A stretch of 64,000 nt of DNA from Candidatus Woesearchaeota archaeon. Lineage in GTDB: Archaea > Nanobdellota > Nanobdellia > SCGC-AAA011-G17 > GW2011-AR18. Of this stretch, positions 34,006 through 61,530 are shown piece by piece. Under the pieces are notes generated by a model. It was not told where the DNA came from, did no database searches, and saw only the letters and a list, made by a program, of their open reading frames with translations. Both the position numbers and the translations under genes were made by a program. Location of the stretch: positions 2,198 to 66,197 of the forward strand of contig JAGVZM010000002.1 in the NCBI GenBank assembly GCA_018302545.1, in the 5' to 3' direction. How positions within the stretch are numbered: the first letter of the stretch is position 1; each line of letters opens with the position of its first letter.

Positions 34006-34036
34006 AATAATAAAAAGAAGAGGATTACTTATAAAT

Positions 34037-35571: not shown

Positions 35572-35572
35572 T

Positions 35573-40818: not shown

Positions 40819-40819
40819 T

Positions 40820-41212: not shown

Positions 41213-41220
41213 TTTTCCTC

Positions 41221-42676: not shown

Positions 42677-42677
42677 T

Positions 42678-43055: not shown

Positions 43056-43056
43056 T

Positions 43057-43458
43057 TTACACCACAAGTTTAGCTATTTTAGTAACAGCAGGCCACCTTT
43101 GTGATACCTCCTTAGCAATTGGACCTTTAATTAATGTTCCTTTTGGATTTCCTTTATCATCCTTTAAAACGACTGCAGCATTATCTTCAAATTTAACCCT
43201 AGTACCATCAGATCTTCTATATTCTTTTTTTTGTCTAACTATAATTGCACTAACAACCTTCTTTCTCATTTCAGGATTCCCTTTTCTAACAGACGCAACA
43301 ATATGATCGCCAACGCCCCCACTTAAGTTTCTTCCCTTAACAGTTTTAGCTCTTTTAAAAGACATAACAAATAAAATCTTAGCTCCTGAATTATCACACG
43401 CGAGTACATAAGATCCTTTTTGTATTCCTTTTGTTATATTTGCTTTTAATGCTTTCAT
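43057..43458 (-). CDS. rpl14: 50S ribosomal protein L14 (uL14)
   Basis: LACDNSGAKILFVMSF... Confidence 0.9.
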   Translation of the reverse strand: MKALKANITKGIQKGSYVLACDNSGAKILFVMSFKRAKTVKGRNLSGGVGDHIVASVRKGNPEMRKKVVSAIIVRQKKEYRRSDGTRVKFEDNAAVVLKDDKGNPKGTLIKGPIAKEVSQRWPAVTKIAKLVV

Positions 43459-43772
43459 TATAATTTCTCCACAATTACAAAGTTTTTAGTTTTACTTATA
43501 GGCCTAGTCTCAACTATCCTTACTTTATCTCCTACTTGTGCATTTATGCATATAGGATTATGAACTTGTATCTTACTTCTCCTTTTTTCATATCTTTGAT
43601 ATTTGGGCAAGTAAACAATTCTACTCCACTGTACTACTGCAGATTTTTGAGCACCAGATTTAACAACTTGAGCAATAAACTCTCTACCTCTAAGTTTCAA
43701 ACCAGTCTCCTCTACTACCATCTGCACAGAGCCCTTTTCAACTTCCATTATTTTTTGTTTTTTCTTAACCAT
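43458..43772 (-). CDS. rps17: 30S ribosomal protein S17 (uS17)
   Basis: OB-fold; KTKNFVIVEKL. Confidence 0.85.
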   Translation of the reverse strand: MVKKKQKIMEVEKGSVQMVVEETGLKLRGREFIAQVVKSGAQKSAVVQWSRIVYLPKYQRYEKRRSKIQVHNPICINAQVGDKVRIVETRPISKTKNFVIVEKL

Positions 43773-44091
43773 TTTTACCTTGACTTTCTTTGATTATTAT
43801 TGAATCAGCGTTGAATCCTAATTTCTGCAACTCTGCTTTGACCTTTTCAACATGATTACCTTGTAACTCTATAACACCATTCTTAGATGTTCCGCCACAA
43901 GCAAGTTTAGTCTTAAGTTTTTTACTAAGATCCTTAAGATCAATAGTCTTTTCATCAAAGCCTTCCACTACAGTTGCTAATTTACCATATCTTTTTTTAA
44001 CAACTTTAATAGTTATCTTTTGACCTTCCCTGGCAATAGTTTGACAAACACAAAGGTCTTTAGGTAAACTACAAACACTGCATATTTCCAT
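43765..44091 (-). CDS. translation initiation factor SUI1/eIF1 homologue
   Basis: IKVVKKRYGKLATVVEGF...LACGGTSKNGVIELQGNHVEKVKAELQKLGF. Confidence 0.75.
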   Translation of the reverse strand: MEICSVCSLPKDLCVCQTIAREGQKITIKVVKKRYGKLATVVEGFDEKTIDLKDLSKKLKTKLACGGTSKNGVIELQGNHVEKVKAELQKLGFNADSIIIKESQGKNG

Positions 44092-44316
44092 TTATTTTGT
44101 CGTTACCTCCTTCTTATTTTTCATATTCAAAATTGTCTTCATTCTAGCAATATTTTTTCTAATTACTTTAACTTTTCCTGGATTCTCAGGAGGAGTACCT
44201 CTTGAGATTTGAGATCTATATTTAATTAGTTCCATATTTAGTTCTTGCATATTTTTTCTAATTTCTTCTTCTCCCATATTTTTTAATTCATTCTTCTTTA
44301 GTTTCGCCATTTTCAA
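44092..44316 (-). CDS. rpl29: 50S ribosomal protein L29 (uL29)
   Basis: MKMAKLKKNELKNMGEEEIRKNMQELNMELIKYRSQ. Confidence 0.8.
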   Translation of the reverse strand: MKMAKLKKNELKNMGEEEIRKNMQELNMELIKYRSQISRGTPPENPGKVKVIRKNIARMKTILNMKNKKEVTTK

Positions 44317-45121
44317 CTTCCTGTTTTACTTCTTTTGTTTTTTTCTTTGTTCTCTTTTTAGGTTTTTCCCCAGTTTCAACTTCAGTAGTCTTAATTTCCT
44401 CTTTGACATCAACTGATTTTTCTTCAACAACTGGTTTAGGTTGATCTAAAACCTCAGAAGATTTTTTAGCTTGTACAATTATATCTTGTTCACTAACTGG
44501 AGTGCTAACAACTTTAATTTGATCTTCTCTAATTTTTATATCATCAGGCAAAACAACCTCTGAATGCAATATACTAACCTTTATTCCAATAGTACCACTT
44601 CTTAAGTTACAAGACTCATAAGACCTATCCATATAATTTTCTGAAACATCACCTGATTTTTTCAAATAGCCTGCTGAAAATCTCCAAGTTTTAGCTCTTT
44701 CACCAGGAACTCCCCTTCCAGATATAACAATTTCTATTCCTTTTGCTCCTGCCCTCATAGCATCCTCTAAGGCTTTGTAAGCCATAGCCTTAAATCTCTT
44801 AGGACCAAACCTATCAAATCCAGTAATCAAAGATCTAGATACAGATGAAGCATCAACTAAAGGATTAGGAATTTCTAAAACTTCTAGCTGAGGATTTTCC
44901 ATATTAAACTTAGTTTTCAAAATATCTGTTAATTTCTTAATGTTAGCTCCTTTTCTACCAACTATTAAACCAGGTCTAGAGGTATAAACACTAATCTTCT
45001 CTCCTAAAGGAGTTCTCTGCATAGCAATATAACTACAGCTAGTTGCACCTAAGAAACTAAATACAAAATCTTGTATTTGTTTTTCCTTCACTTTTTCAGC
45101 AATAATCTGTCTTTCAATCAT
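44288..45121 (-). CDS. rps3: 30S ribosomal protein S3 (uS3) with K/E-rich C-terminal tail
   Basis: KH domain RPGLIVGRKGANIKKLTDIL. Confidence 0.9.
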   Translation of the reverse strand: MIERQIIAEKVKEKQIQDFVFSFLGATSCSYIAMQRTPLGEKISVYTSRPGLIVGRKGANIKKLTDILKTKFNMENPQLEVLEIPNPLVDASSVSRSLITGFDRFGPKRFKAMAYKALEDAMRAGAKGIEIVISGRGVPGERAKTWRFSAGYLKKSGDVSENYMDRSYESCNLRSGTIGIKVSILHSEVVLPDDIKIREDQIKVVSTPVSEQDIIVQAKKSSEVLDQPKPVVEEKSVDVKEEIKTTEVETGEKPKKRTKKKTKEVKQEVENGETKEE

Positions 45122-45558
45122 TTTTTACCTTCCTTTTTATCTTCCACATTTCTCTCTTCAACAATCAATTCAACATGAGTATTTTTCATTTTAGTTCTAC
45201 CCTTCCTAGTAGAATGCCATCTAGCCTCAGCCTTATCAGCTTTAGCATGAACTAAATATAAACTATTAACATTCAATCCCTTATTTTCAGCATTAGCCTC
45301 TAATGAATTAAACAAATTCAAAAATTCAGTACCTGCTTTAACTGGATATTTACCAGGACCAACACCTTTCCTATGGCCTCTATTCCAACTATATCTCCTA
45401 ACAGGAACAGCCCTCTCCTGATCAACAGTATATTGAATCATTTGTTTAGCTTGTTTTAGAGATTTACCTCTAATATAATTACAAATCTCAACAGACATTT
45501 TAGTAGAGATATTTAAAGATCTTCCACTAACCTTTGCAGTATTATTCTTATCAACCAT
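45118..45558 (-). CDS. rpl22: 50S ribosomal protein L22 (uL22)
   Basis: position and conserved core. Confidence 0.85.
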   Translation of the reverse strand: MVDKNNTAKVSGRSLNISTKMSVEICNYIRGKSLKQAKQMIQYTVDQERAVPVRRYSWNRGHRKGVGPGKYPVKAGTEFLNLFNSLEANAENKGLNVNSLYLVHAKADKAEARWHSTRKGRTKMKNTHVELIVEERNVEDKKEGKK

Positions 45559-45559
45559 T

Positions 45560-45958
45560 TTACTTCACACTAACTGATGAACTTGATTTAGTTGCACCAA
45601 TACCTGGAGCATTATGTCCAACTTTCTTTCTTGTTAAGGCAAATTCACCTAAATACATACCTAACATATCAATTGTGATTTCAATAGGAACAAACTCCTT
45701 TCCATTATAAATATGAATAGTAGTTCCTAAAAATTCAGGAAGTATAATCATGTTTCTACAGTGAGTTCTTACAGGTTTCTTTAATTTTCCTTCTTTACCT
45801 TTCTTGACTTTTAACAAAAGTCTTTTTTGAGCATCAGTCAATCCTCTTTTCAAAGTTCTTCTAGCTCTTGCAGGAACGTATTTCGCAAAATCAACTAAAC
45901 TCATATTCGCCAGTTCCTCTACAGTCTTTCCTTTAAAATTTACTTCTTTCCTTGCCAT
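45560..45958 (-). CDS. rps19: 30S ribosomal protein S19 (uS19)
   Basis: HCRNMIILPEFLGTTIHIYNGKEFVPIEI. Confidence 0.9.
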   Translation of the reverse strand: MARKEVNFKGKTVEELANMSLVDFAKYVPARARRTLKRGLTDAQKRLLLKVKKGKEGKLKKPVRTHCRNMIILPEFLGTTIHIYNGKEFVPIEITIDMLGMYLGEFALTRKKVGHNAPGIGATKSSSSVSVK

Positions 45959-45960
45959 AT

Positions 45961-46674
45961 TTACTTCTTCCTACCTGTTCTTCTCGGTGCTACTTTTCCT
46001 ACCTTTCTTCCTGGTGGAGCATGTCTAGGCGCAATACTTGATTTACCTTTATGCCTACCTCTTCCTGAACCAAAAGGATGTTCAACTGCATTCATCGCTA
46101 CAGCAGAAGTAACAGGATATAATTTACCTCTAGCTCTCATAGCATGCCATTTTTTTCCAGCTTTGACAAATGGTTTTTCAAGTCTACCACCGCCAGCTAC
46201 TTGTCCAACAGTTGCCCTACACTTAGCATTAAATTCTTTTTCTTTTTTACTAGGCATTAATAATTTAACCTTACCCTCTGTTCTCGCCAAAATTTTTGCA
46301 AAAACTCCAGAAGATCTAACAAACTTACCACCGTCTCCTGGTTTAGATTCTATATTATAAACAAAAGTTCCTTCTGGGATCTCAGATAATGAAAGTGTAT
46401 TCCCATTATTGATACTAGACTTATTTCCTGTAAACACTTGATCACCAACAGCCAATCCTTCTGGAGCAATCATATAACAAATTTCTCCATCTTCATATTG
46501 AACAACTGCTAAAGGAGCACTATGACTAACACTATGCATTAACTCAACAATTACTCCAAAACAACCTTCACTATTAAAAGATTTATTCTTAGCTCTAGCA
46601 AAATATCTATGACTAAGTGCTACATATCTCCTAGTTCCTCTTCCTCTCTTCTGTGAAGTTATTCTTTTTCCCAT
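45961..46674 (-). CDS. rpl2: 50S ribosomal protein L2 (uL2)
   Basis: MNAVEHPFGSGRGRHKGKSSIAPR. Confidence 0.9.
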   Translation of the reverse strand: MGKRITSQKRGRGTRRYVALSHRYFARAKNKSFNSEGCFGVIVELMHSVSHSAPLAVVQYEDGEICYMIAPEGLAVGDQVFTGNKSSINNGNTLSLSEIPEGTFVYNIESKPGDGGKFVRSSGVFAKILARTEGKVKLLMPSKKEKEFNAKCRATVGQVAGGGRLEKPFVKAGKKWHAMRARGKLYPVTSAVAMNAVEHPFGSGRGRHKGKSSIAPRHAPPGRKVGKVAPRRTGRKK

Positions 46675-46935
46675 TTACATTAACCCCAATTTAGTCATTA
46701 TATCAATTGCTGGATTAGCCTCATTTAATTTGACATATGCTCTTTTTTTTCCATCAACATTCAAAAAAGTATTTACTTTATCAACTTTAACATCAAATAA
46801 TTTTTCAACAGCCTGTTTAATCTCTTCTTTTTTAGACTTCAAATCTACAACAAATAATAATTTATTTTCCCTATCCATAAGTCTAATCGCTTTTTCTGTA
46901 GCCAGAGGATATTTTATAACTTGATCTTTTTTCAT
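46675..46935 (-). CDS. rpl23: 50S ribosomal protein L23 (uL23)
   Basis: IKYPLATEKAIRLMDRENKLLFVVD. Confidence 0.85.
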   Translation of the reverse strand: MKKDQVIKYPLATEKAIRLMDRENKLLFVVDLKSKKEEIKQAVEKLFDVKVDKVNTFLNVDGKKRAYVKLNEANPAIDIMTKLGLM

Positions 46936-47702
46936 TTCTTCACTCCAATAAACAACTTCTCTTTATCCATAGTTTCCAAAGCATTTTTAGTAAATATGCA
47001 GGCTCTAGGTAAGTTGTAATTCAAAGACAATAAATGCGCATTCAAACTCTTAACGTCAATAGTATCATAACCAGGAAGATTATTCAGAGCTTTAACAACA
47101 TCACAATTCTTTGTAACGACAACTAAAGGATTCTTCTTATATCTAACAGCCCTTCCTCTAGATTTACCCCTTCCAGCTTTAAAAATTTTTTTTCCATCAA
47201 CATCAAAACCTAAAGTCTCCAAAACTTTCTTAACATCTTTAGTAACTTTAATACTTTCAAACTTAGAATCAATAATAGTCAATTTATTTTGTTGCTGAAT
47301 ACCACTTAAAGCACTTCTAATAGCCTTTCTTCTTTCCTTAACATTAATCTTTAATTCCCAATTTTTACTAGCTTTAGGAGGATGCGCCCTTCTACCTCCA
47401 ACAGTACTTGATATTAAAGCACCAACCCATCCAAACTGCATACCTCTTCTCCACATTGTTTTTCTTGGAACTCTAGATATTCCCTTACCATAAGAACCTT
47501 TATAATTCCTTCTTCTTCTAGATAATTTAGCAGAATAATTCTTTCCAGCCCTAGGCATAGTTCCATAAGGCTGTCTTAAATGACTAAATATAGCTAATTT
47601 AGCTCTATTGACCAAACCAGGCTCATATTCTTCAGTAAATTGAATAGGCAATTCTATACTACTTAGTTTTTTCCCATCCAATCCTAAAACATCAACTTTC
47701 AT
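46932..47702 (-). CDS. rpl4: 50S ribosomal protein L4 (uL4)
   Basis: position and length. Confidence 0.85.
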   Translation of the reverse strand: MKVDVLGLDGKKLSSIELPIQFTEEYEPGLVNRAKLAIFSHLRQPYGTMPRAGKNYSAKLSRRRRNYKGSYGKGISRVPRKTMWRRGMQFGWVGALISSTVGGRRAHPPKASKNWELKINVKERRKAIRSALSGIQQQNKLTIIDSKFESIKVTKDVKKVLETLGFDVDGKKIFKAGRGKSRGRAVRYKKNPLVVVTKNCDVVKALNNLPGYDTIDVKSLNAHLLSLNYNLPRACIFTKNALETMDKEKLFIGVKK

Positions 47703-48703
47703 TGCTTACTCTCCTTACTAATATAATCTACATTTATTCCAGCGCCAAATCCCTTTGTTTGCCTTATAGGACTAGTAAAAGTAATTAATCTTTTAACATG
47801 ACCTGGCAAGCTTCCTTTTATTAATAAATAATCATTCTTAACTAAACCATAATGTAAAAATCCACCTTTAGGATTAACTTTTTCAGGATCAGAACTAACA
47901 AATAAAATATCTTTATTATATTCTGTTCTCAAATGTATACCCATTCCACCAGGCATTTTAACTCCCCACCAAACACGTCCAGGACTCTCAGGACCAAGAA
48001 TATTACCTCTTCTTTTCTTCTCTGTTTTATGGTTTCTTAAATTAATTCCAAATCTCTTAACTGTACCTTGAAATCCTTTACCTATAGTAACAGCATGAGC
48101 ATCAACTTTAATACCTTCTTTTAAAATATCACTAACTTTAATCTCTCTATCAAACAATGTTTTAGCATAATCAAGTTTATCTTTTACATTATTTCCACCC
48201 ACACCTAATTCAAGAACTTCAGGCTTTTTCTTGCCAATTCCTGTTTTTTTAGGCTGTGTGTATATTTTAACTCTTAAATCATAAAACTCTCCAATTTTAG
48301 ACTCTAACTCCTTTATTTTAGAGTCATAATCCTGCTTTTTTGGAAGTTTAATCTTCTTAGCAAGCTCTTTGTCTAATTTTGGATTCATAATTTCAGAAAC
48401 TAAAACTAAATGATTAAATGAATTTTTTTTATAAAATTTTAAAGAAAGAACCTTAATAGAAGGACATTCAACAACAGTAACAGGCCAAATAAGACTCTCA
48501 TTTTTTGTCATTGAATTTGATCTTGTATCCTTAACATTAACATGGGTCATACCAACTTTATAACCAACAAATCCTTGTAAACCAACATCTTTACTTTTAA
48601 CCCAAGATCTAACTCTAGCAACCATTTTCTTAGCCCTCTTTCTAGGCCAAAATTGCTTACTTCCATGTTTAGGATTATTTCTCCTATTTTTTGTGTGTCC
48701 CAT
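47699..48703 (-). CDS. rpl3: 50S ribosomal protein L3 (uL3)
   Basis: HGSKQFWPRKRAKKMVARVRSW...GYKVGMTHV. Confidence 0.9.
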   Translation of the reverse strand: MGHTKNRRNNPKHGSKQFWPRKRAKKMVARVRSWVKSKDVGLQGFVGYKVGMTHVNVKDTRSNSMTKNESLIWPVTVVECPSIKVLSLKFYKKNSFNHLVLVSEIMNPKLDKELAKKIKLPKKQDYDSKIKELESKIGEFYDLRVKIYTQPKKTGIGKKKPEVLELGVGGNNVKDKLDYAKTLFDREIKVSDILKEGIKVDAHAVTIGKGFQGTVKRFGINLRNHKTEKKRRGNILGPESPGRVWWGVKMPGGMGIHLRTEYNKDILFVSSDPEKVNPKGGFLHYGLVKNDYLLIKGSLPGHVKRLITFTSPIRQTKGFGAGINVDYISKESKQ

Positions 48704-50289: not shown

Positions 50290-53200
50290 TTATTTACTCT
50301 TTTTTAAATCTTTTCTATTCCTAACATTAAAAATAGAGTAGTAAACAATCAATAAAACTAAAGCAAAAACTAAAGCCCCTATGCCCCAACCAGGAATATT
50401 GTTGGATTCAAAACCAGTAGCACAAACCCCTACAACTCTAAGCGGACTACTCAAACCCATTGCTGTAGCTTCTGCTTGAGTTATTTGATTGGTATTACAA
50501 ACATCAAAACCTAAAGCTGCAAAATTCTGACCACAAGTAACCTCAACATCATCCAACTCTCCATCATTATCTAAATCAATACAACTCTTAAGATTAACAA
50601 AGGACGTCCCAGGAATACCTCTTGTACAAGATTGGCAACAATTAGGTTCATTTATATTACCAGATAAAGAAAGATTACCATTACAAGCTTCACCAACACC
50701 GCATAAATATCCTCTAACACTACCGCAACTAACTGATCCTCCACCAGGACCTCTACCTATTATACTTCCACAATCGTTTCTACAAACACCATCACCACAA
50801 CAAGTCATTCCTCCAAGACAGTCATTATTATTAAGACACTGCCCTCCTATATTAGTAATTCCAGTATACAAAAGACAACTAGGACAAAAACTAGAATTAA
50901 ATCCTCCTAAAGCATTTTCTAGATCAGAAACAGGACCATAATGAATCCAACCTAAGTAAAGATAAGTAGCATTCATAGGAGCAACATAATTAAAATTTAT
51001 TATACCATTCAAAACAGGTATAGCTGTTAGAGTATCTAAAACTACAAGAGAATTAGTATCATTAAATCCAACAACAAAGCTAGTTGCATATCCTGAGAAT
51101 ATTGAAGAACCTCCTCCAAAAGTTGGATCTTCTCTTACACAACTACACTGCAAACTAACTGTTTGACCAACAACAGCTGTAACCATCATTCCTCTATTAG
51201 TTATTGCAGTTCCATTGTTCCAGACACATTCAGTTTGACAAGTATTAGAACAAATAGGATCAGGAAGAACTCTACAAATACCAGAATTCGCACCTTGTTG
51301 AAGAGCGCTACTTCCACTATTAAGATCACAATAAAATCCAGTGCCTAAGGAAGAACAATCATTATTACTACTACAAGTAACAACCTCACATAAACTAGTT
51401 GAAGGATTACAAACCTCAGTTAACCCACAGTCATTATTGGTATTACAAATTGAACAAGTTCCAGTTTGACAAATCAGACATTGCCCAACTAAAGGATTGC
51501 TAGTTCTTAAACATCTTGCATCAGGATAATTCTGACAAGTTCTACCAATCCTACAACCAGAAACACACTGACATCCATCACAAACTTCCCCAATACTACA
51601 ATCACTATCAAAAACACAACTAGCATTAACAATATGAAGTAATTGATCATTTCTATTTCCAGAATCACAAATTAAATTATTATTTGTAGAATTTAGAAAA
51701 TTAAAAGCATATCTTCCCTCATCTAAAAAAGCAGAAGATAAGAAACCAGTACTACCAAAACGAATTGGTGAATAATTACCATATGAAAAAGAGTTATTAT
51801 CTAAATCTCTTAAAGTAAAATTCAAAGATCCACTATTCAAAACATTTCCTTGTGAATCTAACAAACAAGAAAGATAACCTATAGCAGAGTCTCCCTCTTC
51901 AATCGTTAAATTATATCCATTACCGCTATGTAAAATACGGCCGTCAGTCCAATTACAAGAAGGATTACAATTTAAACCTAAATTAGGATCTCTAACTTGT
52001 AAAACCCCTCTAAAGTTATCTACAGAATTACAATTAGGATTAGGAGCACCACCAACTGTAAATATATAAACCCCAGGAGTAGAAGGAACAAAAGATCTAA
52101 TAGCATTACCATTAGTAACACCAATATTAGTATCCACTAAAACAGGGGCAGTTAAACTATTAAAGATATTATAAATCACCAAATTTGTATTTGTGCTATC
52201 TAACAAAGCACCAGAAGAATCTTGTAAACATGAAGCATTTATCATAACATTATCTCCTGTGTTTACACTAACAACATTAGGACCTGAAAGATAATTCCCT
52301 CCTTCCCACTGACAACCAAGATTACATGATACACTAGAAGCTGCCCTAAGAAGACAACTAACTTTATTTCCATCATTATTACAAGAGTAATTAGGATCAC
52401 AAAAATATTGTCCTAATTGATAAACATTTTTACAAGAAGCAAAATCACCAGAACAACTCCATCCATCAGAGACATAACCACAAAGACCTTGATGAGTACC
52501 ACCACCAATTTGAGGACTAACACAAATATTAGTAGAAATATCACAAGTTTCTCCAAGATTACAATCAGAGTTACTCAAACATCCAGGTCTACAAAGACCA
52601 CTAGAAAAATCACAAAAATTACCACTAGGACAAGTAAAACTTTGAGAAGAACAAGTAAAAGTACAAATACCAGGGCTAGCAACTCTTAAATCACAAGTTT
52701 CTCCAAGATTACAATTATTGTTGCTCAAACATCCAGGTCTACAAATTCCAGAAATAGTATCACAATAATTTCCCGAAGTACAAGGAGCATTTTGTCCACA
52801 ATTGTTAGGTGATTGAATTCCACAAATTCTAGTATTAGGATCACAATAATTAGAGCTACACTCTATGTTATTATTACATGAAAGTCCATCAGTTTTTTTA
52901 GGATCACACGAAACACCACTTCCTATATTACTGCAATAATAATTAGTATTACAAAAATATTCTGATGCAGTTAGACCCGAAACTTGTTTACAAGAAGTAA
53001 AATCCCCTGAACAATACCATCCATTTATAGTATCCCCACAATATCCAATATAATTAGTTATAGTAGTTCCACCACTTTGTTGTCCAATAACACAAGTATT
53101 AGTAGTAAAGTCACAAGTCTCACCAGTATCACAAAATTGATTTATTTGTCCACAAGGAGCTCCAGGTATAGCAAAAACAAGTTCAATAGAAAATAAACTA

Positions 53201-53304
53201 ATTAAAACAGCAATAAGTAAAAATAATCCCCTCTTTAACATATAAAATAGAACATCAAAATAGCTATTTAAAATTATTCTTTTAATCAGACCAGATAGAA
53301 ACAA
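50290..53304 (-). CDS. giant (1004 aa) cysteine-rich cell-surface protein with tandem Cys modules and C-terminal TM anchor
   Basis: N-terminal TM/signal; repeated CxSGNxCDxxSGxCRPGCLSNxxCNLGETCD modules; C-terminal GIGALVFALVLLIVYYSIF then basic tail. Confidence 0.55.
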   Translation of the reverse strand: MFLSGLIKRIILNSYFDVLFYMLKRGLFLLIAVLISLFSIELVFAIPGAPCGQINQFCDTGETCDFTTNTCVIGQQSGGTTITNYIGYCGDTINGWYCSGDFTSCKQVSGLTASEYFCNTNYYCSNIGSGVSCDPKKTDGLSCNNNIECSSNYCDPNTRICGIQSPNNCGQNAPCTSGNYCDTISGICRPGCLSNNNCNLGETCDLRVASPGICTFTCSSQSFTCPSGNFCDFSSGLCRPGCLSNSDCNLGETCDISTNICVSPQIGGGTHQGLCGYVSDGWSCSGDFASCKNVYQLGQYFCDPNYSCNNDGNKVSCLLRAASSVSCNLGCQWEGGNYLSGPNVVSVNTGDNVMINASCLQDSSGALLDSTNTNLVIYNIFNSLTAPVLVDTNIGVTNGNAIRSFVPSTPGVYIFTVGGAPNPNCNSVDNFRGVLQVRDPNLGLNCNPSCNWTDGRILHSGNGYNLTIEEGDSAIGYLSCLLDSQGNVLNSGSLNFTLRDLDNNSFSYGNYSPIRFGSTGFLSSAFLDEGRYAFNFLNSTNNNLICDSGNRNDQLLHIVNASCVFDSDCSIGEVCDGCQCVSGCRIGRTCQNYPDARCLRTSNPLVGQCLICQTGTCSICNTNNDCGLTEVCNPSTSLCEVVTCSSNNDCSSLGTGFYCDLNSGSSALQQGANSGICRVLPDPICSNTCQTECVWNNGTAITNRGMMVTAVVGQTVSLQCSCVREDPTFGGGSSIFSGYATSFVVGFNDTNSLVVLDTLTAIPVLNGIINFNYVAPMNATYLYLGWIHYGPVSDLENALGGFNSSFCPSCLLYTGITNIGGQCLNNNDCLGGMTCCGDGVCRNDCGSIIGRGPGGGSVSCGSVRGYLCGVGEACNGNLSLSGNINEPNCCQSCTRGIPGTSFVNLKSCIDLDNDGELDDVEVTCGQNFAALGFDVCNTNQITQAEATAMGLSSPLRVVGVCATGFESNNIPGWGIGALVFALVLLIVYYSIFNVRNRKDLKKSK
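52541..52745. repeat. intragenic direct repeat (two about 55-nt copies, about 90% identical, 52541..52595 and 52691..52745)
   Basis: TCACAAGTTTCTCCAAGATTACAAT...CTCAAACATCCAGGTCTACAAA occurs twice; encodes repeated Cys module. Confidence 0.5.
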
Positions 53305-53798: not shown

Positions 53799-54212
53799 TT
53801 AATCTTTAGAAATTATTGCATAAATAGCTTTTCCAGGCAACCTCTTTCTAAACCCAGACTTAGCATATTTAATATAACTATTTTTCAAATTAAAATTTAA
53901 CCAAGAATCCATCCAACCTTGAGCAGTATAAACTAAATAATGCCCAGAAGGATATTTTTTAGATCTCTGGATAAAAACAATAGTATTTTCTTTATATCTA
54001 ATTCTTTTATTTCCAATGTATCTATAAAAATATTCTCTTCCAGAAATTCTTAAAGCATTAACAAGGTCTTTACAAATAAATCCCCTAATTCTAGCTAGTG
54101 TAGAATATCTAAAATAATTCTTTTTGGAATAATTATAAGAGTTACCGCAAATGAAAGAAACACATGCAATACCACAACCTAAAGGATCCTTTTGGACAAC
54201 AGCATTTTTCAT
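53799..54212 (-). CDS. papain-like cysteine peptidase domain protein (peptidase C39-like)
   Basis: putative catalytic Cys in DPLGCGIACVSFICG and His in SGHYLVYTAQG. Confidence 0.4.
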   Translation of the reverse strand: MKNAVVQKDPLGCGIACVSFICGNSYNYSKKNYFRYSTLARIRGFICKDLVNALRISGREYFYRYIGNKRIRYKENTIVFIQRSKKYPSGHYLVYTAQGWMDSWLNFNLKNSYIKYAKSGFRKRLPGKAIYAIISKD

Positions 54213-54263: not shown

Positions 54264-55061
54264 ATGAAAAAGTTCATACTAATTCTAGTGATGTTAATTC
54301 TAATAATAAGTTGTACTAACAAAGATAAACCTACAAAAGAGGATAAAAGAACAGAGATATACCTCCCATCCCCAGGAACAACTTGGCAATGGCAATTATC
54401 AGGAAAAATAAATACCAATTATAATGTAGAATTATATGATGTTGACCTATTTGAGACATCAATAGAAACAATTAATGAATTACATAATAGAAATATAAAA
54501 GTAATCTGCTATTTCTCAGCAGGTACATTAGAAGAATACAGAGAAGATTATGAAAATTTTCCCAAGGAGATAATAGGTAAAAGCTTATTAGAATGGCCAG
54601 ATGAAAAATGGTTAGATATATCTAATTATAAAAAGTTTTCAGATATCATGGCAAAGCGTATGGATTTAGCTGTAGAAAAAAATTGTGATGGTATTGAACC
54701 AGATAATGTAGATGCATATACTCAGGATAGTGGCTTCAATTTAAGCTACGATAATCAATTAGAATATAATAAGTGGTTAGCAGAAGAAGCACACAAAAGA
54801 AATTTATCTATTGCGTTAAAAAATGACCTAAATCAAGTTAAGGATTTGGTAAATTATTTTGATTTTGCAATAAATGAACAATGCTTTTTATATAATGAAT
54901 GTGAATTACTCCTTCCCTTTATTAAACAAAATAAAGCAGTTTTAGGAGTAGAATACGAATTAGATTTACACCAATTTTGTAAAGAAGCAAATTCATTAAA
55001 TTTTAGTTGGTTGAAAATGGATTTAGAATTAGACGGCAGTAGAGAATCTTGCAACAATTAA
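54264..55061 (+). CDS. glycoside hydrolase family 114-like (endo-alpha-1,4-polygalactosaminidase/PelA-hydrolase-like) lipoprotein
   Basis: lipobox LIISC; TTWQWQLSG, VICYFSAGT, KWLDISN, CDGIEPDNVDAY characteristic of GH114. Confidence 0.6.
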   Translation: MKKFILILVMLILIISCTNKDKPTKEDKRTEIYLPSPGTTWQWQLSGKINTNYNVELYDVDLFETSIETINELHNRNIKVICYFSAGTLEEYREDYENFPKEIIGKSLLEWPDEKWLDISNYKKFSDIMAKRMDLAVEKNCDGIEPDNVDAYTQDSGFNLSYDNQLEYNKWLAEEAHKRNLSIALKNDLNQVKDLVNYFDFAINEQCFLYNECELLLPFIKQNKAVLGVEYELDLHQFCKEANSLNFSWLKMDLELDGSRESCNN

Positions 55062-55337: not shown

Positions 55338-57527
55338 ATGATAAAAAACAACAAACAGATAGAAGAAGGAACTTTTAAATATCTAGAACTATCAAAGAAA
55401 AAAATGAAGAAAAAGTTTTATATCACAACACCAATTTACTATGTAAATGATAAACCTCATGTTGGTCATGCATATACTACAATAATAGCAGATATTCTAG
55501 CAAGGTGGCATAGATTAAAACAAGAAGATGTATTTTTCCTAACTGGATTAGATGAAAACGGACAAAAAACAGTCGAAGCTTCTATAAAGTTCGGATTTAA
55601 AAGTCCACAAGCATGGTGTGATTATATAGCAGAAGAATATCTAAAAACATGGAAAAATCTAAACATAAGCAATGATGATTTTATAAGAACAACAGAAGAA
55701 AGACACCATAAACTTTCTATAGAGTTCACAAAAAAAGTTCAAAAAAAAGGAGACATCTATAAAGGAAACTATATAGGATTATATTGTGAAGGTTGTGAAG
55801 CATACATAACAGAATCAGAATTAACAAAAGAAGGTTTTTGTCCAAATCACAATAAAAAACCAAAGGAGTTACATGAAGAAAATTACTTTTTCAAATTAAG
55901 TAAATATGATAAACAATTACTAGAACATATAGAGAATAATCCAAGTTTCATACAACCCGAGTTCAGGAAAAAAGAAATTATTAATTTCATAAAGCAAGGA
56001 TTAAAAGATATAAGTATCTCTAGGCAGAGTTTAACATGGGGAATTCCTTTTCCTGGAGATGAATCTCAAAGAATTTATGTTTGGTTTGATGCATTATTAA
56101 ATTATTTGCACCCAAAGGAATATTGGCCTGCAAATATACAAATGATGGGTAAAGAAATAATAAAATTTCATTGTATAATCTGGCCGGCAATGCTTCTCTC
56201 AGCCGGATATAAACTTCCAAAAAAAGTATTTGCTCATGGATGGTTAACAATAAATGGAGAAAAGATGTCTAAATCTTTAGGCAATGCTATAGACCCAAAT
56301 CACCTTACTAAAACATTTGGAACAGATGCATTAAGATACTATTATGCAAGAGAAGTACCTTTAGGAAATGATGGAGATTTTTCAGAAAAACAATTAGTAG
56401 CTAGATTAAACAATGAGCTAGCAAATGAACTAGGCAACTTAATTTCAAGAACCTTAACTTTAATAGAAAAAAAATTAAATTCAGAAATAAAAAAAGATAA
56501 GGTAGATAAAACATTATTCAAAGATTTAAAGGTTAAACAAATCGACAAGTTCATCCAAGATATAGAACCCCATAATGCAATTGCATTAATTTTTCATTTT
56601 ATACATTCATGTAATCAATATATTAGCGAAAAAGAGCCATGGAACATCAATAAAGAAAATGAATTAAATAAAATACTCTATAATTTAACAGATGCTATTA
56701 GAATAATATCAATATTGCTCTATTCATTTCTACCAGAAACATGTGAAAAGATTCATAAACAATTATCTTTAGACACTAAAAAATTAAGTTTAGCTCAGGC
56801 TATTCCTGGAATATTAACAACAACAAAAATAAACAAAGGAGAAATTTTATTCCAAAAAGTAATTTTCAAAGAAACAAAAGATGTTTTCAAAAATCCTAAA
56901 TGTTATGTAACTCCAGAAGTGCAAAGATTAGGAATTAAAGTTAAATTTGCAGAATTAATCAACCTAAATATAAAAAAGAAACATATGGGTTTAGAAAAAT
57001 TAAAATCTGAAATAAAGAAAAGTTTCAAACCGAACATAAGAGTACTAAAAGGATATGATAATTACTCTAGATTATTAAACATAGAAGAAGGACAATGCTC
57101 AGTCTACAATTTAATGGATTTAGTTGAAGAAAACGGAAAACTTCCAACAATAAATACAGCTGTAGATAGTTATAATATTATATCTCTTGCTAAAAGCCTT
57201 GTTGTAGGTGCTCATGATAGAGAACATGTAAAGGGACCAGTGAGGTTTGATATTTTTAAAGGAAATGAATTATACATCCCATTATTCACAAATGAAAAAA
57301 AATCAGTTAATAAAGGAGAATTTGGTTGTATTGATGATGAAAAAGTTCTTTGTAGACTAGATATTAAACAAGGCGATCAAACAAAGGTGACAGAAAAAAC
57401 AAAGAATATTATTCTTTATGTACAAGGAAATGAATATACTTCAGAAGAATATTTGCAGGAAGCAATAGAAGAAATTTGTAAGTTAATGATTAGATTTTGT
57501 GATGGAGAATATAAAATATTAAATTAA
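55338..57527 (+). CDS. metG: methionine--tRNA ligase (MetRS) with C-terminal B3/B4-like domain
   Basis: HVGHAYTT (HIGH), EKMSKSLGN (KMSKS), anticodon-binding helical domain; C-terminal about 200 aa with INTAVDSYNIISLAKSLVVGAHDREHVKGPVRFD resembling the PheT B3/4 domain. Confidence 0.85.
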   Translation: MIKNNKQIEEGTFKYLELSKKKMKKKFYITTPIYYVNDKPHVGHAYTTIIADILARWHRLKQEDVFFLTGLDENGQKTVEASIKFGFKSPQAWCDYIAEEYLKTWKNLNISNDDFIRTTEERHHKLSIEFTKKVQKKGDIYKGNYIGLYCEGCEAYITESELTKEGFCPNHNKKPKELHEENYFFKLSKYDKQLLEHIENNPSFIQPEFRKKEIINFIKQGLKDISISRQSLTWGIPFPGDESQRIYVWFDALLNYLHPKEYWPANIQMMGKEIIKFHCIIWPAMLLSAGYKLPKKVFAHGWLTINGEKMSKSLGNAIDPNHLTKTFGTDALRYYYAREVPLGNDGDFSEKQLVARLNNELANELGNLISRTLTLIEKKLNSEIKKDKVDKTLFKDLKVKQIDKFIQDIEPHNAIALIFHFIHSCNQYISEKEPWNINKENELNKILYNLTDAIRIISILLYSFLPETCEKIHKQLSLDTKKLSLAQAIPGILTTTKINKGEILFQKVIFKETKDVFKNPKCYVTPEVQRLGIKVKFAELINLNIKKKHMGLEKLKSEIKKSFKPNIRVLKGYDNYSRLLNIEEGQCSVYNLMDLVEENGKLPTINTAVDSYNIISLAKSLVVGAHDREHVKGPVRFDIFKGNELYIPLFTNEKKSVNKGEFGCIDDEKVLCRLDIKQGDQTKVTEKTKNIILYVQGNEYTSEEYLQEAIEEICKLMIRFCDGEYKILN

Positions 57528-57765: not shown

Positions 57766-58011
57766 TTAAGCAGAGCCTTTAAAGCCCCACCATAACATTT
57801 TCAAACCCCATAAAAATACTAACAATCCCAAAGATCTTTCAAATGTAAACCATCCAACTGGAAACATCATTAATAACCCTAGAACAGCAGTTAACAAAGC
57901 ACATAAAACCATACACCAGCTGCCACTCATACACTTACAAGGACTACAATTACACATAGAACACATGTTCTTATTCATTGATTTCATTTCTTTTTTAGCC
58001 ATAAATATCAC
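57766..58011 (-). CDS. hypothetical Cys-rich small membrane protein
   Basis: CSMCNCSPCKCMSGSWC followed by 2 TM. Confidence 0.3.
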   Translation of the reverse strand: MIFMAKKEMKSMNKNMCSMCNCSPCKCMSGSWCMVLCALLTAVLGLLMMFPVGWFTFERSLGLLVFLWGLKMLWWGFKGSA

Positions 58012-60337: not shown

Positions 60338-61321
60338 TCAAGACTTTAAAGAAATATCTACATAATTAAAATATAACTTATGTAATCTAAAAAATTCTCC
60401 TAGGATTATTCTATTATTTTTTTCATAATTATCAAAAATAAGCCTCGCTTCATAAAAGAATAATCTTAAAATTTGTTGATTCGTATTTAAGGCCACTTTA
60501 TAATCATTTTTAAAATTTTTAAGTTCTTTCAAGTATAAATTCCGTACTTCTTTAATTATAAAACTAAATTTCCTTTTCTTGATTCTAAGTTCATGAGAAT
60601 CTAAGAGTACTTTATTTAGTTCTCTCTCATTAAGCAAAGTAAATGAAGTCGATACAAGTTCTAAATAACCAATCATTAAAGATTGGAAATTCTTTCTTTT
60701 TATGAGTGAAAGTTTCTTTGCAAGTAGATCAATGAGTTTTTTCTCTTCTTTAAATGAAAAAAATTCCAAAAAATCTTTAATAATATCCTTATTTTTTCCC
60801 CGAATAAGACTTATAAAAGGAGGTTGATTTTCTAAGGAAGTACTCCATAAAATTGCTGGAAATTCTTCAAGAATTGAAGTAACTTCAGATCCTTTAACTT
60901 TTAAAAATGTTGGAGTTGTTGTTGATTTATTCTTTCTATTTTTTTTAATATTATTTAATATTGATGAGAAAAAAATATGAATAAGGTCGTGTGCAGCAAG
61001 TAGGGAAAGTTCTTTTTTTAATTTTTCTAAAGCTTGTTTTCGGTCAACACCTTCCTGTCTCCATTTTTTGAAAGCCGCGACTAACAATTTTTTTCCTGCA
61101 TACTTAACATAGGATTTAAGAAATAATACTTCTTTTTTAGAGAGCTGATTTTTTGTTACTCCCAGGCCTTTCAAAAACAAATCAAAACATTTTCCCTTAA
61201 TGTAAATATTTTCTATCGATTCTCTAATCTCTTTCTGAGAAAGCAAATAATCAACTCTTGATTTAAAAGTTCTCATGTCAAAAACTAAATATAAAAAGTA
61301 TTTAAAGAATTGTTTTCTCAT
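60338..61321 (-). CDS. hypothetical protein
   Basis: ORF only. Confidence 0.4.
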   Translation of the reverse strand: MRKQFFKYFLYLVFDMRTFKSRVDYLLSQKEIRESIENIYIKGKCFDLFLKGLGVTKNQLSKKEVLFLKSYVKYAGKKLLVAAFKKWRQEGVDRKQALEKLKKELSLLAAHDLIHIFFSSILNNIKKNRKNKSTTTPTFLKVKGSEVTSILEEFPAILWSTSLENQPPFISLIRGKNKDIIKDFLEFFSFKEEKKLIDLLAKKLSLIKRKNFQSLMIGYLELVSTSFTLLNERELNKVLLDSHELRIKKRKFSFIIKEVRNLYLKELKNFKNDYKVALNTNQQILRLFFYEARLIFDNYEKNNRIILGEFFRLHKLYFNYVDISLKS

Positions 61322-61456
61322 CGCAAGTTCAAATCACAAGAGTTTCGCAATATTTAAGTAATACAAGCCATAAGTACAATATAACTAGGAGAAAACAAAA
61401 CAAGAGGGTGAAGCGTTATTCGTCAAAACCCACTCTCGAAAGTTCAGATCATAAAG

Positions 61457-61530
61457 TGGGCCCGATGTGATTTGAACACACGACCCCTACCTTATCAGAG
61501 TAGTGCTCCACCAAGCTGAGCTACGGGCCC
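61457..61530 (-). tRNA. tRNA-Ile (anticodon GAT), intron-less
   Basis: reverse complement GGGCCCG-TA-GCTC-AGCTTGGTG-GAGC-A-CTACT-CTGATAA-GGTAG-GGGTC-GTGTG-TTCAAAT-CACAT-CGGGCCC-A. Confidence 0.85.

What the first reader, a model, noticed from the sequence alone, without database searches (positions are those of the whole stretch)
55338..57527. MetRS fused to a C-terminal B3/4-like domain instead of the usual EMAP-II-like tRNA-binding domain
Residues after the anticodon-binding domain (about 530..729) resemble the B3/4 domain of PheRS beta subunit (INTAVDSYNIISLAKSLVVGAHDREHVKGPVRFD...), which in PheT carries editing activity. The EMAP-II/Trbp111-like appendage usually found on MetRS is instead attached to class-II LysRS in this window (21943..23814, C-terminal VGKVVKIEKHPNADNLKICTINIG). 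This is an unusual redistribution of accessory tRNA-binding and editing-like modules.
Basis: inference. Interest (0 to 1): 0.5.

Follow-up and report, generated by a model that had tools for sequence, protein, structure and literature searches.

The report
MetRS carrying a CtdA-like tRNA-editing module
This archaeal methionyl-tRNA synthetase ends in a domain built like a known enzyme that strips wrong amino acids off tRNA, a recurrent but apparently undescribed fusion suggesting that some microbes proofread methionine tRNA in a way textbook MetRS does not.

Summary
ORF 55338..57527 (+) encodes a canonical MetRS (residues 23-507) joined by a short flexible linker to a 209-residue B3/4 module (521-729; PF03483, 58-62 bits). 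LysRS (21943..23814) carries a C-terminal PF01588 tRNA-binding domain.

The module is closer to CtdA, the free-standing canavanyl-tRNA deacylase, than to PheT. AF2 gives pLDDT 95, and Foldseek gives TM 0.86-0.89 to CtdA against about 0.6 to PheRS-beta. CtdA residues Y104, N105, G116, C166 and Q173 are kept. E118 and E191 are replaced by an invariant His and Gln.

The fusion is not unique. Of the 80 best species-level loci, 59 are in-frame MetRS fusions, mainly in DPANN, Bathyarchaeia and Methanosarcinales. Two MetRS lineages are involved, at the same junction. In 28 of these loci the Trbp111-like domain is retained downstream, so this is not a simple swap. Twenty loci are free-standing. One relative is fused to a YbaK-like editing domain.

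Best reading (about 0.5, inferred): a tethered hydrolytic module that clears a methionine analogue from tRNAMet; the substrate is unknown. Main rival: a non-catalytic binder of the tRNA 3' end. No paper describing the fusion was found. The LysRS fusion looks much rarer.

The parts
55338..57527 (+). Whole gene: MetRS fused to a CtdA-like B3/4 module (729 aa plus stop). It is identical to GenBank MBS3167858.1, annotated only as 'methionine--tRNA ligase', from a Candidatus Woesearchaeota archaeon.
55404..56858 (+). MetRS proper (residues 23-507): Rossmann catalytic core plus anticodon-binding domain. Motifs: HVGH 41-44, Zn knuckle CEGC 150-153 and CPNH 168-171, Met-pocket motifs YVWFDALLNY 247-256 and FHCIIWPAML 277-286, KMSKS 309-313. 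The alignment to the Aquifex aeolicus MetRS chain (2csx, 497 aa) runs to its residue 494, at window residue 507 (EILFQK).
   Evidence: NCBIfam PRK12267, 618 bits; phmmer against 2csx, 479 bits, residues 23-507; motif coordinates
56859..56897 (+). Linker (residues 508-520), predicted to be disordered and flexible.
   Evidence: Two-domain AF2 model: pLDDT below 50 at residues 507-514, coil over residues 495-521, pTM 0.63
56898..57524 (+). CtdA-like B3/4 module (residues 521-729), equivalent to a complete free-standing protein of about 217 aa.
   Evidence: PF03483, 58-62 bits; AF2 pLDDT 95; Foldseek CtdA 9mkl/9f7e E 1.6e-16, TMq 0.86-0.89; aligns end to end with standalone homologues
57144..57218 (+). 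Pocket segment 1 (residues 603-627, PTINTAVDSYN...VVGAHD). P603, N606, T607, D610, Y612, N613, G624, H626 and D627 are invariant across the 80 related loci and the window. Y612, N613 and G624 correspond to CtdA Y104, N105 and G116. H626 replaces CtdA E118.
   Evidence: residue roles from PMC12449066 and PMC12268091
57333..57371 (+). Pocket segment 2 (residues 666-678, DDEKVLCRLDIKQ). D666, C672 and Q678 are invariant; D675 and K677 are nearly so. C672 and Q678 correspond to CtdA C166 and Q173.
57417..57431 (+). YVQGN motif (residues 694-698): Y694, G697 and N698 invariant, Q696 conserved in all but one sequence. Q696 aligns with CtdA E191.
   Evidence: PMC12268091
21943..23814 (+). Class II LysRS (residues 6-490) with a C-terminal Trbp111/EMAPII-type OB domain (residues 508-615, nt 23464-23787).

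Best explanation
The gene encodes a fully canonical MetRS. The usual C-terminal appendage, a Trbp111-like OB domain that binds the tRNA 3' end, is replaced by a complete CtdA-type B3/4 aminoacyl-tRNA deacylase module on a short flexible tether.

The module most likely acts as a post-transfer proofreading site. After MetRS charges tRNAMet, the aminoacylated CCA end samples the module's pocket. There a methionine look-alike is hydrolysed and Met-tRNAMet is spared.

What is shown: the domain identity, the fold, the retention of the CtdA functional residues, the family-wide invariance of the pocket, and the recurrent, MetRS-specific fusion.

What is inferred: hydrolytic activity, tRNAMet as the tRNA substrate, and whether sampling occurs in cis or by rebinding of released tRNA.

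What is unknown: the amino acid that is removed. Candidates from general knowledge are norleucine, ethionine, O-methylhomoserine, hydroxylated methionine and homocysteine-derived species.
For: (1) Fold and sequence. The best PDB sequence hits are CtdA, the canavanyl-tRNA deacylase (9f7e, E 4.9e-5), and 9mkl. The AF2 model (pLDDT 95) superposes on whole CtdA chains at TMq 0.86-0.89 and rmsd 2.5-2.8 A. PheRS-beta gives about 0.6.

(2) Functional residues. CtdA positions whose mutation inactivates it (N105A, G116H/W, C166G, Q173G in PMC12449066), together with Y104, reported as relevant for catalysis in PMC12268091, correspond to N613, G624, C672, Q678 and Y612. All five are invariant in the 80 related loci and the window, across fused and free-standing forms.

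(3) The same invariant polar pocket occurs in free-standing proteins of about 217 aa, which must work on their own. This argues for an enzyme rather than a passive spacer.

(4) Rosetta-stone argument. The module is fused in frame to MetRS in 59 of the 80 best species-level loci. It is fused to two different MetRS lineages, PRK12267 and PRK00133, at the same junction. Among the ten long or atypical-length representatives checked, eight carried MetRS domains and one (P0139) is a MetRS-type C-terminal fragment by its sequence; the tenth (P0266) showed only B3_4.

(5) The one different partner found is a YbaK/INS-type aminoacyl-tRNA editing domain (P0145).

(6) The junction is one from which the tRNA 3' end can be reached. 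The OB domain normally attached there binds the terminal CA of the CCA tail (PMC11286949).

(7) Trans-editing of tRNAMet charged with a methionine analogue has a precedent: the AlaX-family protein AlfB removes 3-hydroxymethionine (PMC13149037).

(8) There is no sign of decay or recent acquisition. GC is 27.0% in the module, 27.9% in the core and 29.2% in the window.
Against: No activity data exist for any member of this subfamily.

Two residues reported as catalytically relevant in P. canavaninivorans CtdA, E118 and E191, are His and Gln here. Chemistry and specificity may therefore differ.

B3/4-like folds also serve as plain RNA binders; LRRC47 and the TilS C-terminal domain appear in the Foldseek list.

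AF2 gives no defined orientation of the module relative to the anticodon-binding domain (pTM 0.63). Reach to the CCA end of a tRNA bound on the same enzyme is unproven.

The MetRS methionine pocket looks canonical, with no obvious relaxation that would call for extra editing.

MetRS is known to reject homocysteine before transfer, so the need for post-transfer editing depends on an unidentified analogue.

Gene neighbourhoods of the free-standing forms give no hint.
Confidence: 0.5

Rival explanations
1. The module is a non-catalytic tRNA-binding appendage. It holds the tRNA, probably its acceptor or 3' end, and lowers Km for tRNAMet. In this MetRS it simply substitutes for the missing Trbp111-like OB domain.
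For: It occupies exactly the junction where the OB domain sits in canonical MetRS. That OB domain is a 3'-end binder and aminoacylation cofactor (PMC11286949). B3/4-like folds act as RNA binders in LRRC47 and the TilS C-terminal domain. CtdA E118 and E191 are not conserved.
Against: In 28 of the 80 loci the module coexists with a retained OB domain, so it is not merely a substitute. About 18 polar pocket residues are invariant or nearly so, including every CtdA position whose mutation inactivates the enzyme; this is more than RNA-backbone binding would need. Free-standing homologues and a fusion with a YbaK-like deacylase domain point to editing.
Confidence: 0.25
2. The module hydrolyses methionine itself from the wrong tRNAs, correcting mis-methionylation of non-Met tRNAs. 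Alternatively it acts as a regulated brake on Met-tRNAMet supply. In either case the target is not a methionine analogue.
For: MetRS mis-methionylates non-cognate tRNAs in archaea and bacteria (titles and abstracts of PMC4705672 and PMC5137444, listed). The fusion to MetRS would place such an activity at the source.
Against: Known B3/4 and CtdA editing sites select by the aminoacyl side chain, not by tRNA identity (PMC12449066). A Met-specific hydrolase tethered to MetRS would create a futile cycle unless it were tightly gated. No regulatory element was seen.
Confidence: 0.1
3. The module is an orthologue of CtdA, or of the PheRS editing domain, with the same specificity (canavanyl-tRNAArg, or Tyr/m-Tyr-tRNAPhe). 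It acts in trans and is only physically parked on MetRS.
For: It has the same fold and several shared residues.
Against: CtdA E118, N170, W171, R172 and E191 are replaced by family-specific invariant residues H, D, I/V, K and Q. PheT editing residues are not kept, by a transitive alignment through CtdA. Identity to CtdA is only 18-19%. The repeated, exclusive fusion to MetRS, never seen with ArgRS or PheRS among the long proteins checked, is hard to explain under this reading. The NAR 2025 authors themselves suspect a different specificity for the divergent Chloroflexi/archaeal clade.
Confidence: 0.05

Closest known systems
CtdA, the free-standing canavanyl-tRNAArg deacylase (PDB 9mkl, S. enterica by residue numbering; 9f7e, P. 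canavaninivorans)
   Same: It has the same complete B3/B4-plus-indel fold over the whole chain (TMq 0.86-0.89). Y104, N105, G116, C166 and Q173 are conserved. The size is the same, about 210-230 aa.
   Different: Identity is only 18-19%. E118 becomes His, E191 becomes Gln, N170 becomes Asp, W171 becomes Ile/Val and R172 becomes Lys, all fixed within this subfamily. Here the module is covalently fused to MetRS rather than free-standing. The substrate is therefore unlikely to be canavanyl-tRNAArg. The subfamily may overlap the uncharacterised 'CtdA-2' clade of PMC12449066 (Chloroflexi, Bacillota, archaea), but that paper reports C166 as not conserved in CtdA-2, whereas it is invariant here. Equivalence could not be established.
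B3/B4 editing domain of the PheRS beta subunit (PF03483 founder; E. coli, T. thermophilus, P. horikoshii 2cxi)
   Same: The Pfam family and core fold are shared, along with a hydrolytic post-transfer editing role and a conserved Asn next to the scissile ester.
   Different: The structural match is weaker (TMq about 0.6). The PheT editing residues are not kept. There are no flanking PheT domains (B1, B2, B5-B8). The partner is a class I synthetase, not class II PheRS.
Canonical MetRS with a C-terminal Trbp111/EMAPII-like OB domain (for example E. coli, P. abyssi 1rqg, T. thermophilus)
   Same: The catalytic core, anticodon-binding domain and junction position for the appendage are the same. Both appendages plausibly handle the tRNA 3' end.
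   Different: The OB domain is absent from the window's enzyme. In architecture (b) relatives it is pushed downstream of the inserted B3/4 module.
AlfB ('MetX'), an AlaX-family trans-editing factor that removes (2S,3R)-3-hydroxymethionine from tRNAMet (PMC13149037)
   Same: It shows that post-transfer clearance of methionine analogues from tRNAMet exists in nature.
   Different: The fold is unrelated (AlaX). AlfB is free-standing and encoded in a biosynthetic gene cluster. No such cluster is present here.
CP1 editing domains of class Ia LeuRS, IleRS and ValRS
   Same: They are functional analogues: a hydrolytic site on a class Ia synthetase to which the CCA end translocates.
   Different: CP1 is an insertion in the Rossmann fold and is vestigial in MetRS. 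Here the putative editing site is a C-terminal add-on of class II (PheRS) ancestry.
Entamoeba histolytica LysRS with a C-terminal EMAPII-like domain (PMC3226552)
   Same: This is a precedent for the window's second fusion: class II LysRS plus an EMAPII/Trbp111-type OB domain.
   Different: It is eukaryotic and has a cytokine-like role. The window's domain is of the PheT-N-terminal/YtpR flavour in an archaeal MAG.

Membership tests
Pfam PF03483 B3_4 domain superfamily | Profile match above the gathering score | tested here: met
   58.4 bits on the whole protein and 61.9 bits on the C-terminal fragment, against a gathering score of 29.3. The same holds in 10 of 10 relatives tested.
Pfam PF03483 B3_4 domain superfamily | B3/B4 alpha/beta fold | tested here: met
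   AF2 pLDDT 95, pTM 0.91. Foldseek gives 35 PDB hits at E<=1e-3, all CtdA, PheRS-beta or ribosome-complex entries that include LRRC47.
CtdA family (canavanyl-tRNAArg deacylase) | Whole-chain structural equivalence, including the CtdA-specific long indel | tested here: met
   222-226 aligned columns of chains 226-231 residues long, TMt 0.79-0.82, rmsd 2.5-2.8 A.
CtdA family (canavanyl-tRNAArg deacylase) | Functionally required residues Y104, N105, G116, C166, Q173 | tested here: met
   They align with Y612, N613, G624, C672 and Q678, all invariant in the 80 related loci and the window.
CtdA family (canavanyl-tRNAArg deacylase) | Acidic pocket residues E118 and E191, and the N170-W171-R172 segment | tested here: not met
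   H626, Q696 and D675-I676-K677 instead, fixed across the subfamily.
CtdA family (canavanyl-tRNAArg deacylase) | Free-standing monomeric protein | tested here: not met
   The module is fused in frame to MetRS, although 20 of the 80 related loci are free-standing.
CtdA family (canavanyl-tRNAArg deacylase) | Hydrolysis of Can-tRNAArg with discrimination against Arg-tRNAArg | not testable with these tools
   This needs deacylation assays.
PheRS beta-subunit editing domain | E. coli editing-site residues R244, N254, Y255, H265, F267, A312, G318, E334 | tested here: not met
   The test is transitive, through the CtdA structural alignment reported in PMC12449066. Only the Asn is shared. The H265 position is Gly624, the G318 position is Gln678 and the R244 position is Pro603.
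PheRS beta-subunit editing domain | Embedded in PheT, with B1/B2/B5 and further domains | tested here: not met
   No other PheT domains are present. TIGR00472 scores only 27 bits against a cut-off of 402.
Methionine--tRNA ligase, NCBIfam NF008900 (PRK12267 type) | Equivalog score above the cut-off, plus class I signature motifs | tested here: met
   618.4 bits against a cut-off of 598. HVGH 41-44, KMSKS 309-313 and a CxxC...CxxH knuckle. 479 bits to A. aeolicus MetRS 2csx.
Methionine--tRNA ligase, NCBIfam NF008900 (PRK12267 type) | C-terminal Trbp111-like tRNA_bind domain (profile positions about 522-648) | tested here: not met
   The profile is matched only over positions 2-522. There is no PF01588 hit at E<=1.
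Class II lysine--tRNA ligase (NF001756 / TIGR00499) with a PF01588 appendage | LysRS score above the cut-off, plus tRNA_bind above the gathering score | tested here: met
   679 bits against a cut-off of 468, and 596 against 428. PF01588 scores 38.7 bits against 27 at residues 508-615.

The most novel reading that the evidence does not exclude
This B3/4 subfamily, in its free-standing form (Chloroflexia, Myxococcota, some archaea) and its MetRS-fused form (DPANN, Bathyarchaeia, Methanosarcinales, at least one bacterium), constitutes an unrecognised post-transfer proofreading system for tRNAMet. These would be the first natural MetRS enzymes with a dedicated hydrolytic editing domain. The domain would have been recruited from the class II PheRS/CtdA lineage at least twice, and would remove an environmentally relevant methionine analogue that the synthetic site cannot exclude.
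Probability: 0.45. Interest if true: 0.75.

Novelty: new variant of a known kind. Interest (0 to 1): 0.6.

Why it matters
MetRS is the textbook class Ia synthetase without a post-transfer editing site. It is thought to rely on pre-transfer cyclisation of homocysteine, and it lets analogues such as norleucine or ethionine through.

A natural MetRS carrying a CtdA-type deacylase module would show that evolution added proofreading to MetRS by borrowing a class II (PheRS-lineage) domain. If the fusion signal holds, it would also give a specific, testable substrate class (X-tRNAMet) for a divergent and currently uncharacterised CtdA-like clade. It would further indicate which methionine mimics matter in anoxic groundwater and sediment communities.

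On the practical side, these enzymes or modules could improve the fidelity of methionine incorporation. Deleting them could relax fidelity for residue-specific incorporation of non-canonical amino acids.

The finding also shows that current annotation hides the extra domain. The fused genes are named plain 'methionine--tRNA ligase', and JGI even names some free-standing 217-aa modules 'methionyl-tRNA synthetase'.

Tried and rejected
(1) Gene neighbourhood of the 20 free-standing homologues. An all-against-all BLAST of flanking ORFs found no neighbour conserved beyond three closely related Chloroflexi, so there is no substrate hint.

(2) Two-domain AF2 model (residues 375-729), run to see whether the module docks on the anticodon-binding domain. 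The result was pTM 0.63 with a disordered linker. This is uninformative about cis geometry. A full-length model was not attempted because only the window and the search for homologous proteins sequences may be used, and those gave no MSA for the core.

(3) Foldseek against afdb50, to find named UniProt entries with this architecture. The library was unavailable.

(4) Supplementary tables of the NAR 2025 CtdA paper, to test identity with 'CtdA-2'. They are not held.

(5) Literature searches for a MetRS-B3/4 fusion found nothing. 'B3/B4' cannot be searched literally, so a description in a subscription journal or under another name cannot be excluded.

(6) The idea that the LysRS OB domain was 'moved' from MetRS is rejected. 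Its best matches are PheT-N-terminal and YtpR-type domains. None of its 22 metagenomic relatives is attached to LysRS.

(7) Recent horizontal acquisition of the module is not supported. GC is 27.0% in the module and 27.9% in the core.

(8) A relaxed MetRS amino-acid pocket as the reason for editing is not supported. The pocket motifs are those of A. aeolicus MetRS.

(9) I considered a metal-binding site formed by H626, C664 and C672. It was dropped.
Full report
OBSERVATION

The ORF at 55338..57527 (+) is real and 729 aa long. Pfam finds the MetRS catalytic domain (PF09334, 345 bits), MetRS anticodon-binding domains, and PF03483 B3_4 at residues 581-711. The B3_4 hit scores E 9e-16 and 58.4 bits against a gathering score of 29.3. 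The last 229 residues alone score 61.9 bits.

NCBIfam assigns residues 23-520 to methionine--tRNA ligase PRK12267, at 618 bits against a cut-off of 598. The profile's C-terminal tRNA-binding part (positions about 522-648) is unmatched. There is no PF01588 hit on the MetRS.

LysRS at 21943..23814 is a class II LysRS (679 bits) with PF01588 tRNA_bind at residues 508-615, scoring 38.7 bits against a gathering score of 27.

The exact proteins are GenBank MBS3167858.1 'methionine--tRNA ligase' and MBS3167811.1 'lysine--tRNA ligase', from a Candidatus Woesearchaeota archaeon MAG.

ANATOMY OF THE MetRS

Residues 23-507 align end to end with Aquifex aeolicus MetRS (PDB 2csx/2ct8, 479 bits), whose chain ends three residues beyond the aligned region, at window residue 507. 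The class I signatures are intact:
- HVGH at residues 41-44
- KMSKS at 309-313
- a CEGC...CPNH zinc knuckle
- the methionine-pocket motifs YVWFDALLNY and FHCIIWPAML

The synthetase itself therefore looks ordinary. The first 22 residues of the ORF have no counterpart in homologues, so the true start may be Met23 (nt 55404).

Residues 508-520 are a linker. Residues 521-729 align from first to last residue with free-standing proteins of about 217 aa.

An AF2 model of residues 521-729, built on 115 homologues, has pLDDT 95 and pTM 0.91. A two-domain model (residues 375-729) has pTM 0.63, with pLDDT below 50 at residues 507-514 and coil over 495-521. The module is therefore a flexibly tethered unit with no predicted fixed orientation.

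WHAT THE MODULE IS

By sequence, the best solved relatives are not PheRS. They are CtdA, the stand-alone canavanyl-tRNAArg deacylase (9f7e, E 4.9e-5), and 9mkl. By structure:

| Target | Foldseek E | TM (query) | rmsd |
|---|---|---|---|
| CtdA (9mkl, 9f7e), whole chain | 1.6e-16 | 0.86-0.89 | 2.5-2.8 A |
| PheRS-beta chains | 1e-10 to 5e-6 | about 0.6 | not comparable |

LRRC47 and the TilS C-terminal domain appear further down the list.

Two recent papers define the functional residues of CtdA. In S. enterica CtdA, the substitutions N105A, G116H/W, C166G and Q173G inactivate the enzyme, and only the Asn is shared with the PheRS editing site (PMC12449066). [quoted passage not shown]

I mapped these through the HMMER alignment (9mkl numbering is native+2) and through a MAFFT alignment of the module from the 80 related loci and the window.

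| CtdA residue | Residue here | Status in this subfamily |
|---|---|---|
| Y104 | Y612 | kept, invariant |
| N105 | N613 | kept, invariant |
| G116 | G624 | kept, invariant |
| C166 | C672 | kept, invariant |
| Q173 | Q678 | kept, invariant |
| E118 | H626 | changed, invariant |
| N119 | D627 | changed, near-invariant |
| N170 | D675 | changed, near-invariant |
| R172 | K677 | changed, near-invariant |
| E191 | Q696 | changed, near-invariant |

About 18 mostly polar positions are invariant or nearly so in fused and free-standing forms alike: P603, N606, T607, D610, Y612, N613, G624, H626, D627, D666, C672, D675, K677, Q678, Y694, Q696, G697 and N698.

The positions of E. coli H265 and G318 are Gly and Gln here, as in CtdA.

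The module is therefore a distinct subfamily of the CtdA/B3-B4 fold. It keeps the CtdA scaffold residues and has its own fixed specificity residues.

HOW COMMON IT IS

A scan of one genome per GTDB species found 288 genomes encoding a relative. I examined the best 80 loci by tblastn plus stop-to-stop ORFs, with Pfam on ten of them. One search gives the tallies.

| Architecture | Loci (of 80) | Size | Lineages |
|---|---|---|---|
| (a) MetRS + B3/4, like the window | 31 | about 705-820 aa | Woesearchaeota, Iainarchaeota/Diapherotrites (including the complete AR10 genome and Ca. Iainarchaeum andersonii), Aenigmatarchaeota |
| (b) MetRS + B3/4 + tRNA_bind (PF01588, 88-101 bits) | 28 | about 900-950 aa | Bathyarchaeia, Methanosarcinales, some Woesearchaeota/Nanoarchaeia, one Krumholzibacteriaceae bacterium |
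| (c) free-standing | 20 | about 215-235 aa | Chloroflexia, Myxococcales, some Nanoarchaeota and other archaea |
| fragment, not classified | 1 | - | - |

NCBIfam shows that two different MetRS lineages carry the module at the same junction: PRK12267 (window, AR10) and PRK00133 (L039, L016, L072).

An exhaustive HMM search of 1.84 billion cluster representatives gave 2448 hits at E<=1e-3 and 170 at E<=1e-30. About a sixth of the top 150 are longer than 500 aa. Of the ten long or atypical-length ones I checked, eight carried MetRS domains and P0139 is a MetRS-type C-terminal fragment by its sequence; P0266 showed only B3_4. The informative exception is P0145, a complete 387-aa protein that joins a YbaK/INS-type aminoacyl-tRNA editing domain (PF04073, 90.6 bits) to this B3/4 module.

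JGI names several free-standing 217-aa members 'methionyl-tRNA synthetase'. This shows that annotation pipelines have met the fusion without flagging it.

The fusion is recurrent, not a curiosity of this window.

MECHANISM (INFERENCE)

Four lines of evidence converge on tRNAMet editing.
- The module shares its fold and required residues with a proven aminoacyl-tRNA deacylase.
- The same pocket is under strict conservation in free-standing proteins, which must be self-sufficient.
- The fusion partners found are confined to MetRS (two lineages), a tRNA 3'-end-binding OB domain, and a YbaK-like deacylase domain.
- The attachment point is where MetRS normally carries the Trbp111-like OB fold. That fold binds the terminal CA of the tRNA 3' end, and the N. 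equitans MetRS C-terminal OB requires the NCCA tail (PMC11286949). A domain at this junction can therefore plausibly meet the aminoacylated 3' end.

Proofreading of a methionine analogue on tRNAMet in trans has just been shown for an unrelated AlaX-family protein, AlfB, which removes 3-hydroxymethionine (PMC13149037).

I therefore propose a tethered post-transfer editing module that hydrolyses X-tRNAMet, where X is a methionine mimic. My confidence is about 0.5.

Not shown:
- hydrolytic activity
- the identity of X; norleucine, ethionine, O-methylhomoserine, hydroxymethionine and homocysteine-derived species are candidates from general knowledge only
- whether the CCA end is passed in cis or the released tRNA is recaptured

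RIVALS

The main rival (0.25) is a non-catalytic tRNA or 3'-end binder that replaces the OB domain. B3/4-like folds do this in LRRC47 and TilS, and E118 and E191 are changed. Against it, 28 loci keep the OB domain as well, and conservation is concentrated on the CtdA pocket positions.

Minor rivals:
- removal of Met from wrong tRNAs, or regulated deacylation (0.1)
- unchanged CtdA or PheRS specificity acting in trans (0.05), which is contradicted by the remodelled pocket and the exclusive MetRS partnership

RELATION TO KNOWN WORK

PMC12449066 describes an uncharacterised 'CtdA-2' clade in Chloroflexi, Bacillota and archaea, and suspects a different specificity for it. That paper never mentions a fusion or MetRS.

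The free-standing relatives found here are largely Chloroflexia, so the subfamily may overlap CtdA-2. However, that paper reports C166 as not conserved in CtdA-2, whereas the aligned Cys is invariant here. Its supplementary data were not available. I cannot tell whether the two clades are the same.

Six literature searches found no description of a MetRS-B3/4 fusion. The search tool cannot query 'B3/B4' literally and covers open-access papers only.

No NCBIfam model exists for the subfamily. The only hit is PheT at 27 bits.

THE LysRS HALF OF THE FINDING

The C-terminal OB domain on LysRS is real, but it is of the PheT-N-terminal/YtpR flavour (TIGR00472, 65 bits; YtpR, 54 bits).

In a word-indexed search of 5.8 billion proteins, only two other fragments combine PF00152 with PF01588: P0270 at 57% identity and P0272 at 36%. 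None of the 22 metagenomic relatives of the domain is attached to LysRS. Most are N-termini of ORFs of about 800 aa, the size of bacterial PheT, and one is a MetRS.

This fusion therefore looks much rarer than the MetRS one. It has a eukaryotic precedent in Entamoeba LysRS (PMC3226552). Nothing links it causally to the loss of the OB domain from MetRS.

VERDICT

The feature is a new variant of known kinds: an aminoacyl-tRNA synthetase plus an appended editing domain of the CtdA/B3-B4 family. It is widespread in uncultured archaea. It is generically annotated in public databases and, as far as I could search, undescribed.

Interest is 0.6. It would surprise specialists on synthetases, and it makes the function of a divergent CtdA-like clade directly testable. 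Everything beyond domain identity and distribution is still inference.

Noticed in passing
window 21943..23814 (+), domain at nt 23464-23787: Class II (bacterial-type) LysRS in an archaeal MAG, with a C-terminal PF01588 OB domain of the PheT-N-terminal/YtpR flavour. Only two other fragments with PF00152+PF01588 were found (P0270, P0272). None of 22 metagenomic relatives of the domain is on a LysRS. The fusion seems much rarer than the MetRS one. Its only precedent found is eukaryotic (Entamoeba).
   Followed up: partly
P0145 (387 aa, from the representative search): A complete protein joining a YbaK/INS-type aminoacyl-tRNA editing domain (PF04073, residues 35-154) to this B3/4 subfamily (residues 173-383), i.e. 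a double editing-domain protein. In it, G624 is Ser and D675 is Asn. Its genomic context could not be fetched.
   Followed up: partly
L016, L020, L027, L033, L035, L038-L042, L048, L077, L080, L065 and others: MetRS of the PRK00133 type with the B3/4 module inserted between the anticodon-binding domain and a retained Trbp111-like domain (about 900-950 aa). This includes one bacterial genome (Krumholzibacteriaceae, L065). L072 has the PRK00133 core plus B3/4 without the OB domain.
   Followed up: partly
window 55338..55403: The first 22 codons of the annotated MetRS ORF have no counterpart in PDB homologues. The closest relatives (tblastn matches in L001, L002 and L004) begin at query residues 22-25. 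The true start may be Met23 at nt 55404.
   Followed up: no
proteins P0008, P0011, P0025, P0079, P0083, P0094: JGI annotates free-standing B3/4 proteins of about 217 aa as 'methionyl-tRNA synthetase'. Presumably the name was transferred from fused MetRS sequences; this is an annotation artefact.
   Followed up: no
window 54264..55061 (+): Immediately upstream of metG lies a lipoprotein-like GH114 glycoside hydrolase (PF03537, 279 bits). There is no evident functional link to MetRS.
   Followed up: partly
window 57766..58011 (-): An 81-aa ORF with a Cys-rich stretch (CSMCNCSPCKC) followed by hydrophobic segments, just downstream of metG. It was not examined.
   Followed up: no
window 50290..53304 (-), 60338..61321 (-), 53799..54212 (-): ORFs of 1004, 327 and 137 aa with no Pfam family at E<=1e-4.
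   Followed up: no
window 20926..21924 (+) and 24183..24599 (+): A THUMP + RMKL-like methyltransferase, probably a tRNA/rRNA methyltransferase, ends 18 nt upstream of lysS. An archaeal Hjc Holliday-junction resolvase (93 bits) lies downstream, which supports an archaeal origin for the window.
   Followed up: partly
window 33466..48703 (-): A long co-directional run of about 25 short, tightly packed ORFs on the minus strand. This layout is typical of a ribosomal-protein or other conserved operon. It was not examined.
   Followed up: no
window 61456..61530 (-): Only one tRNA gene was detected in 64 kb, tRNA-Ile(GAT). No tRNAMet gene lies near metG.
   Followed up: no
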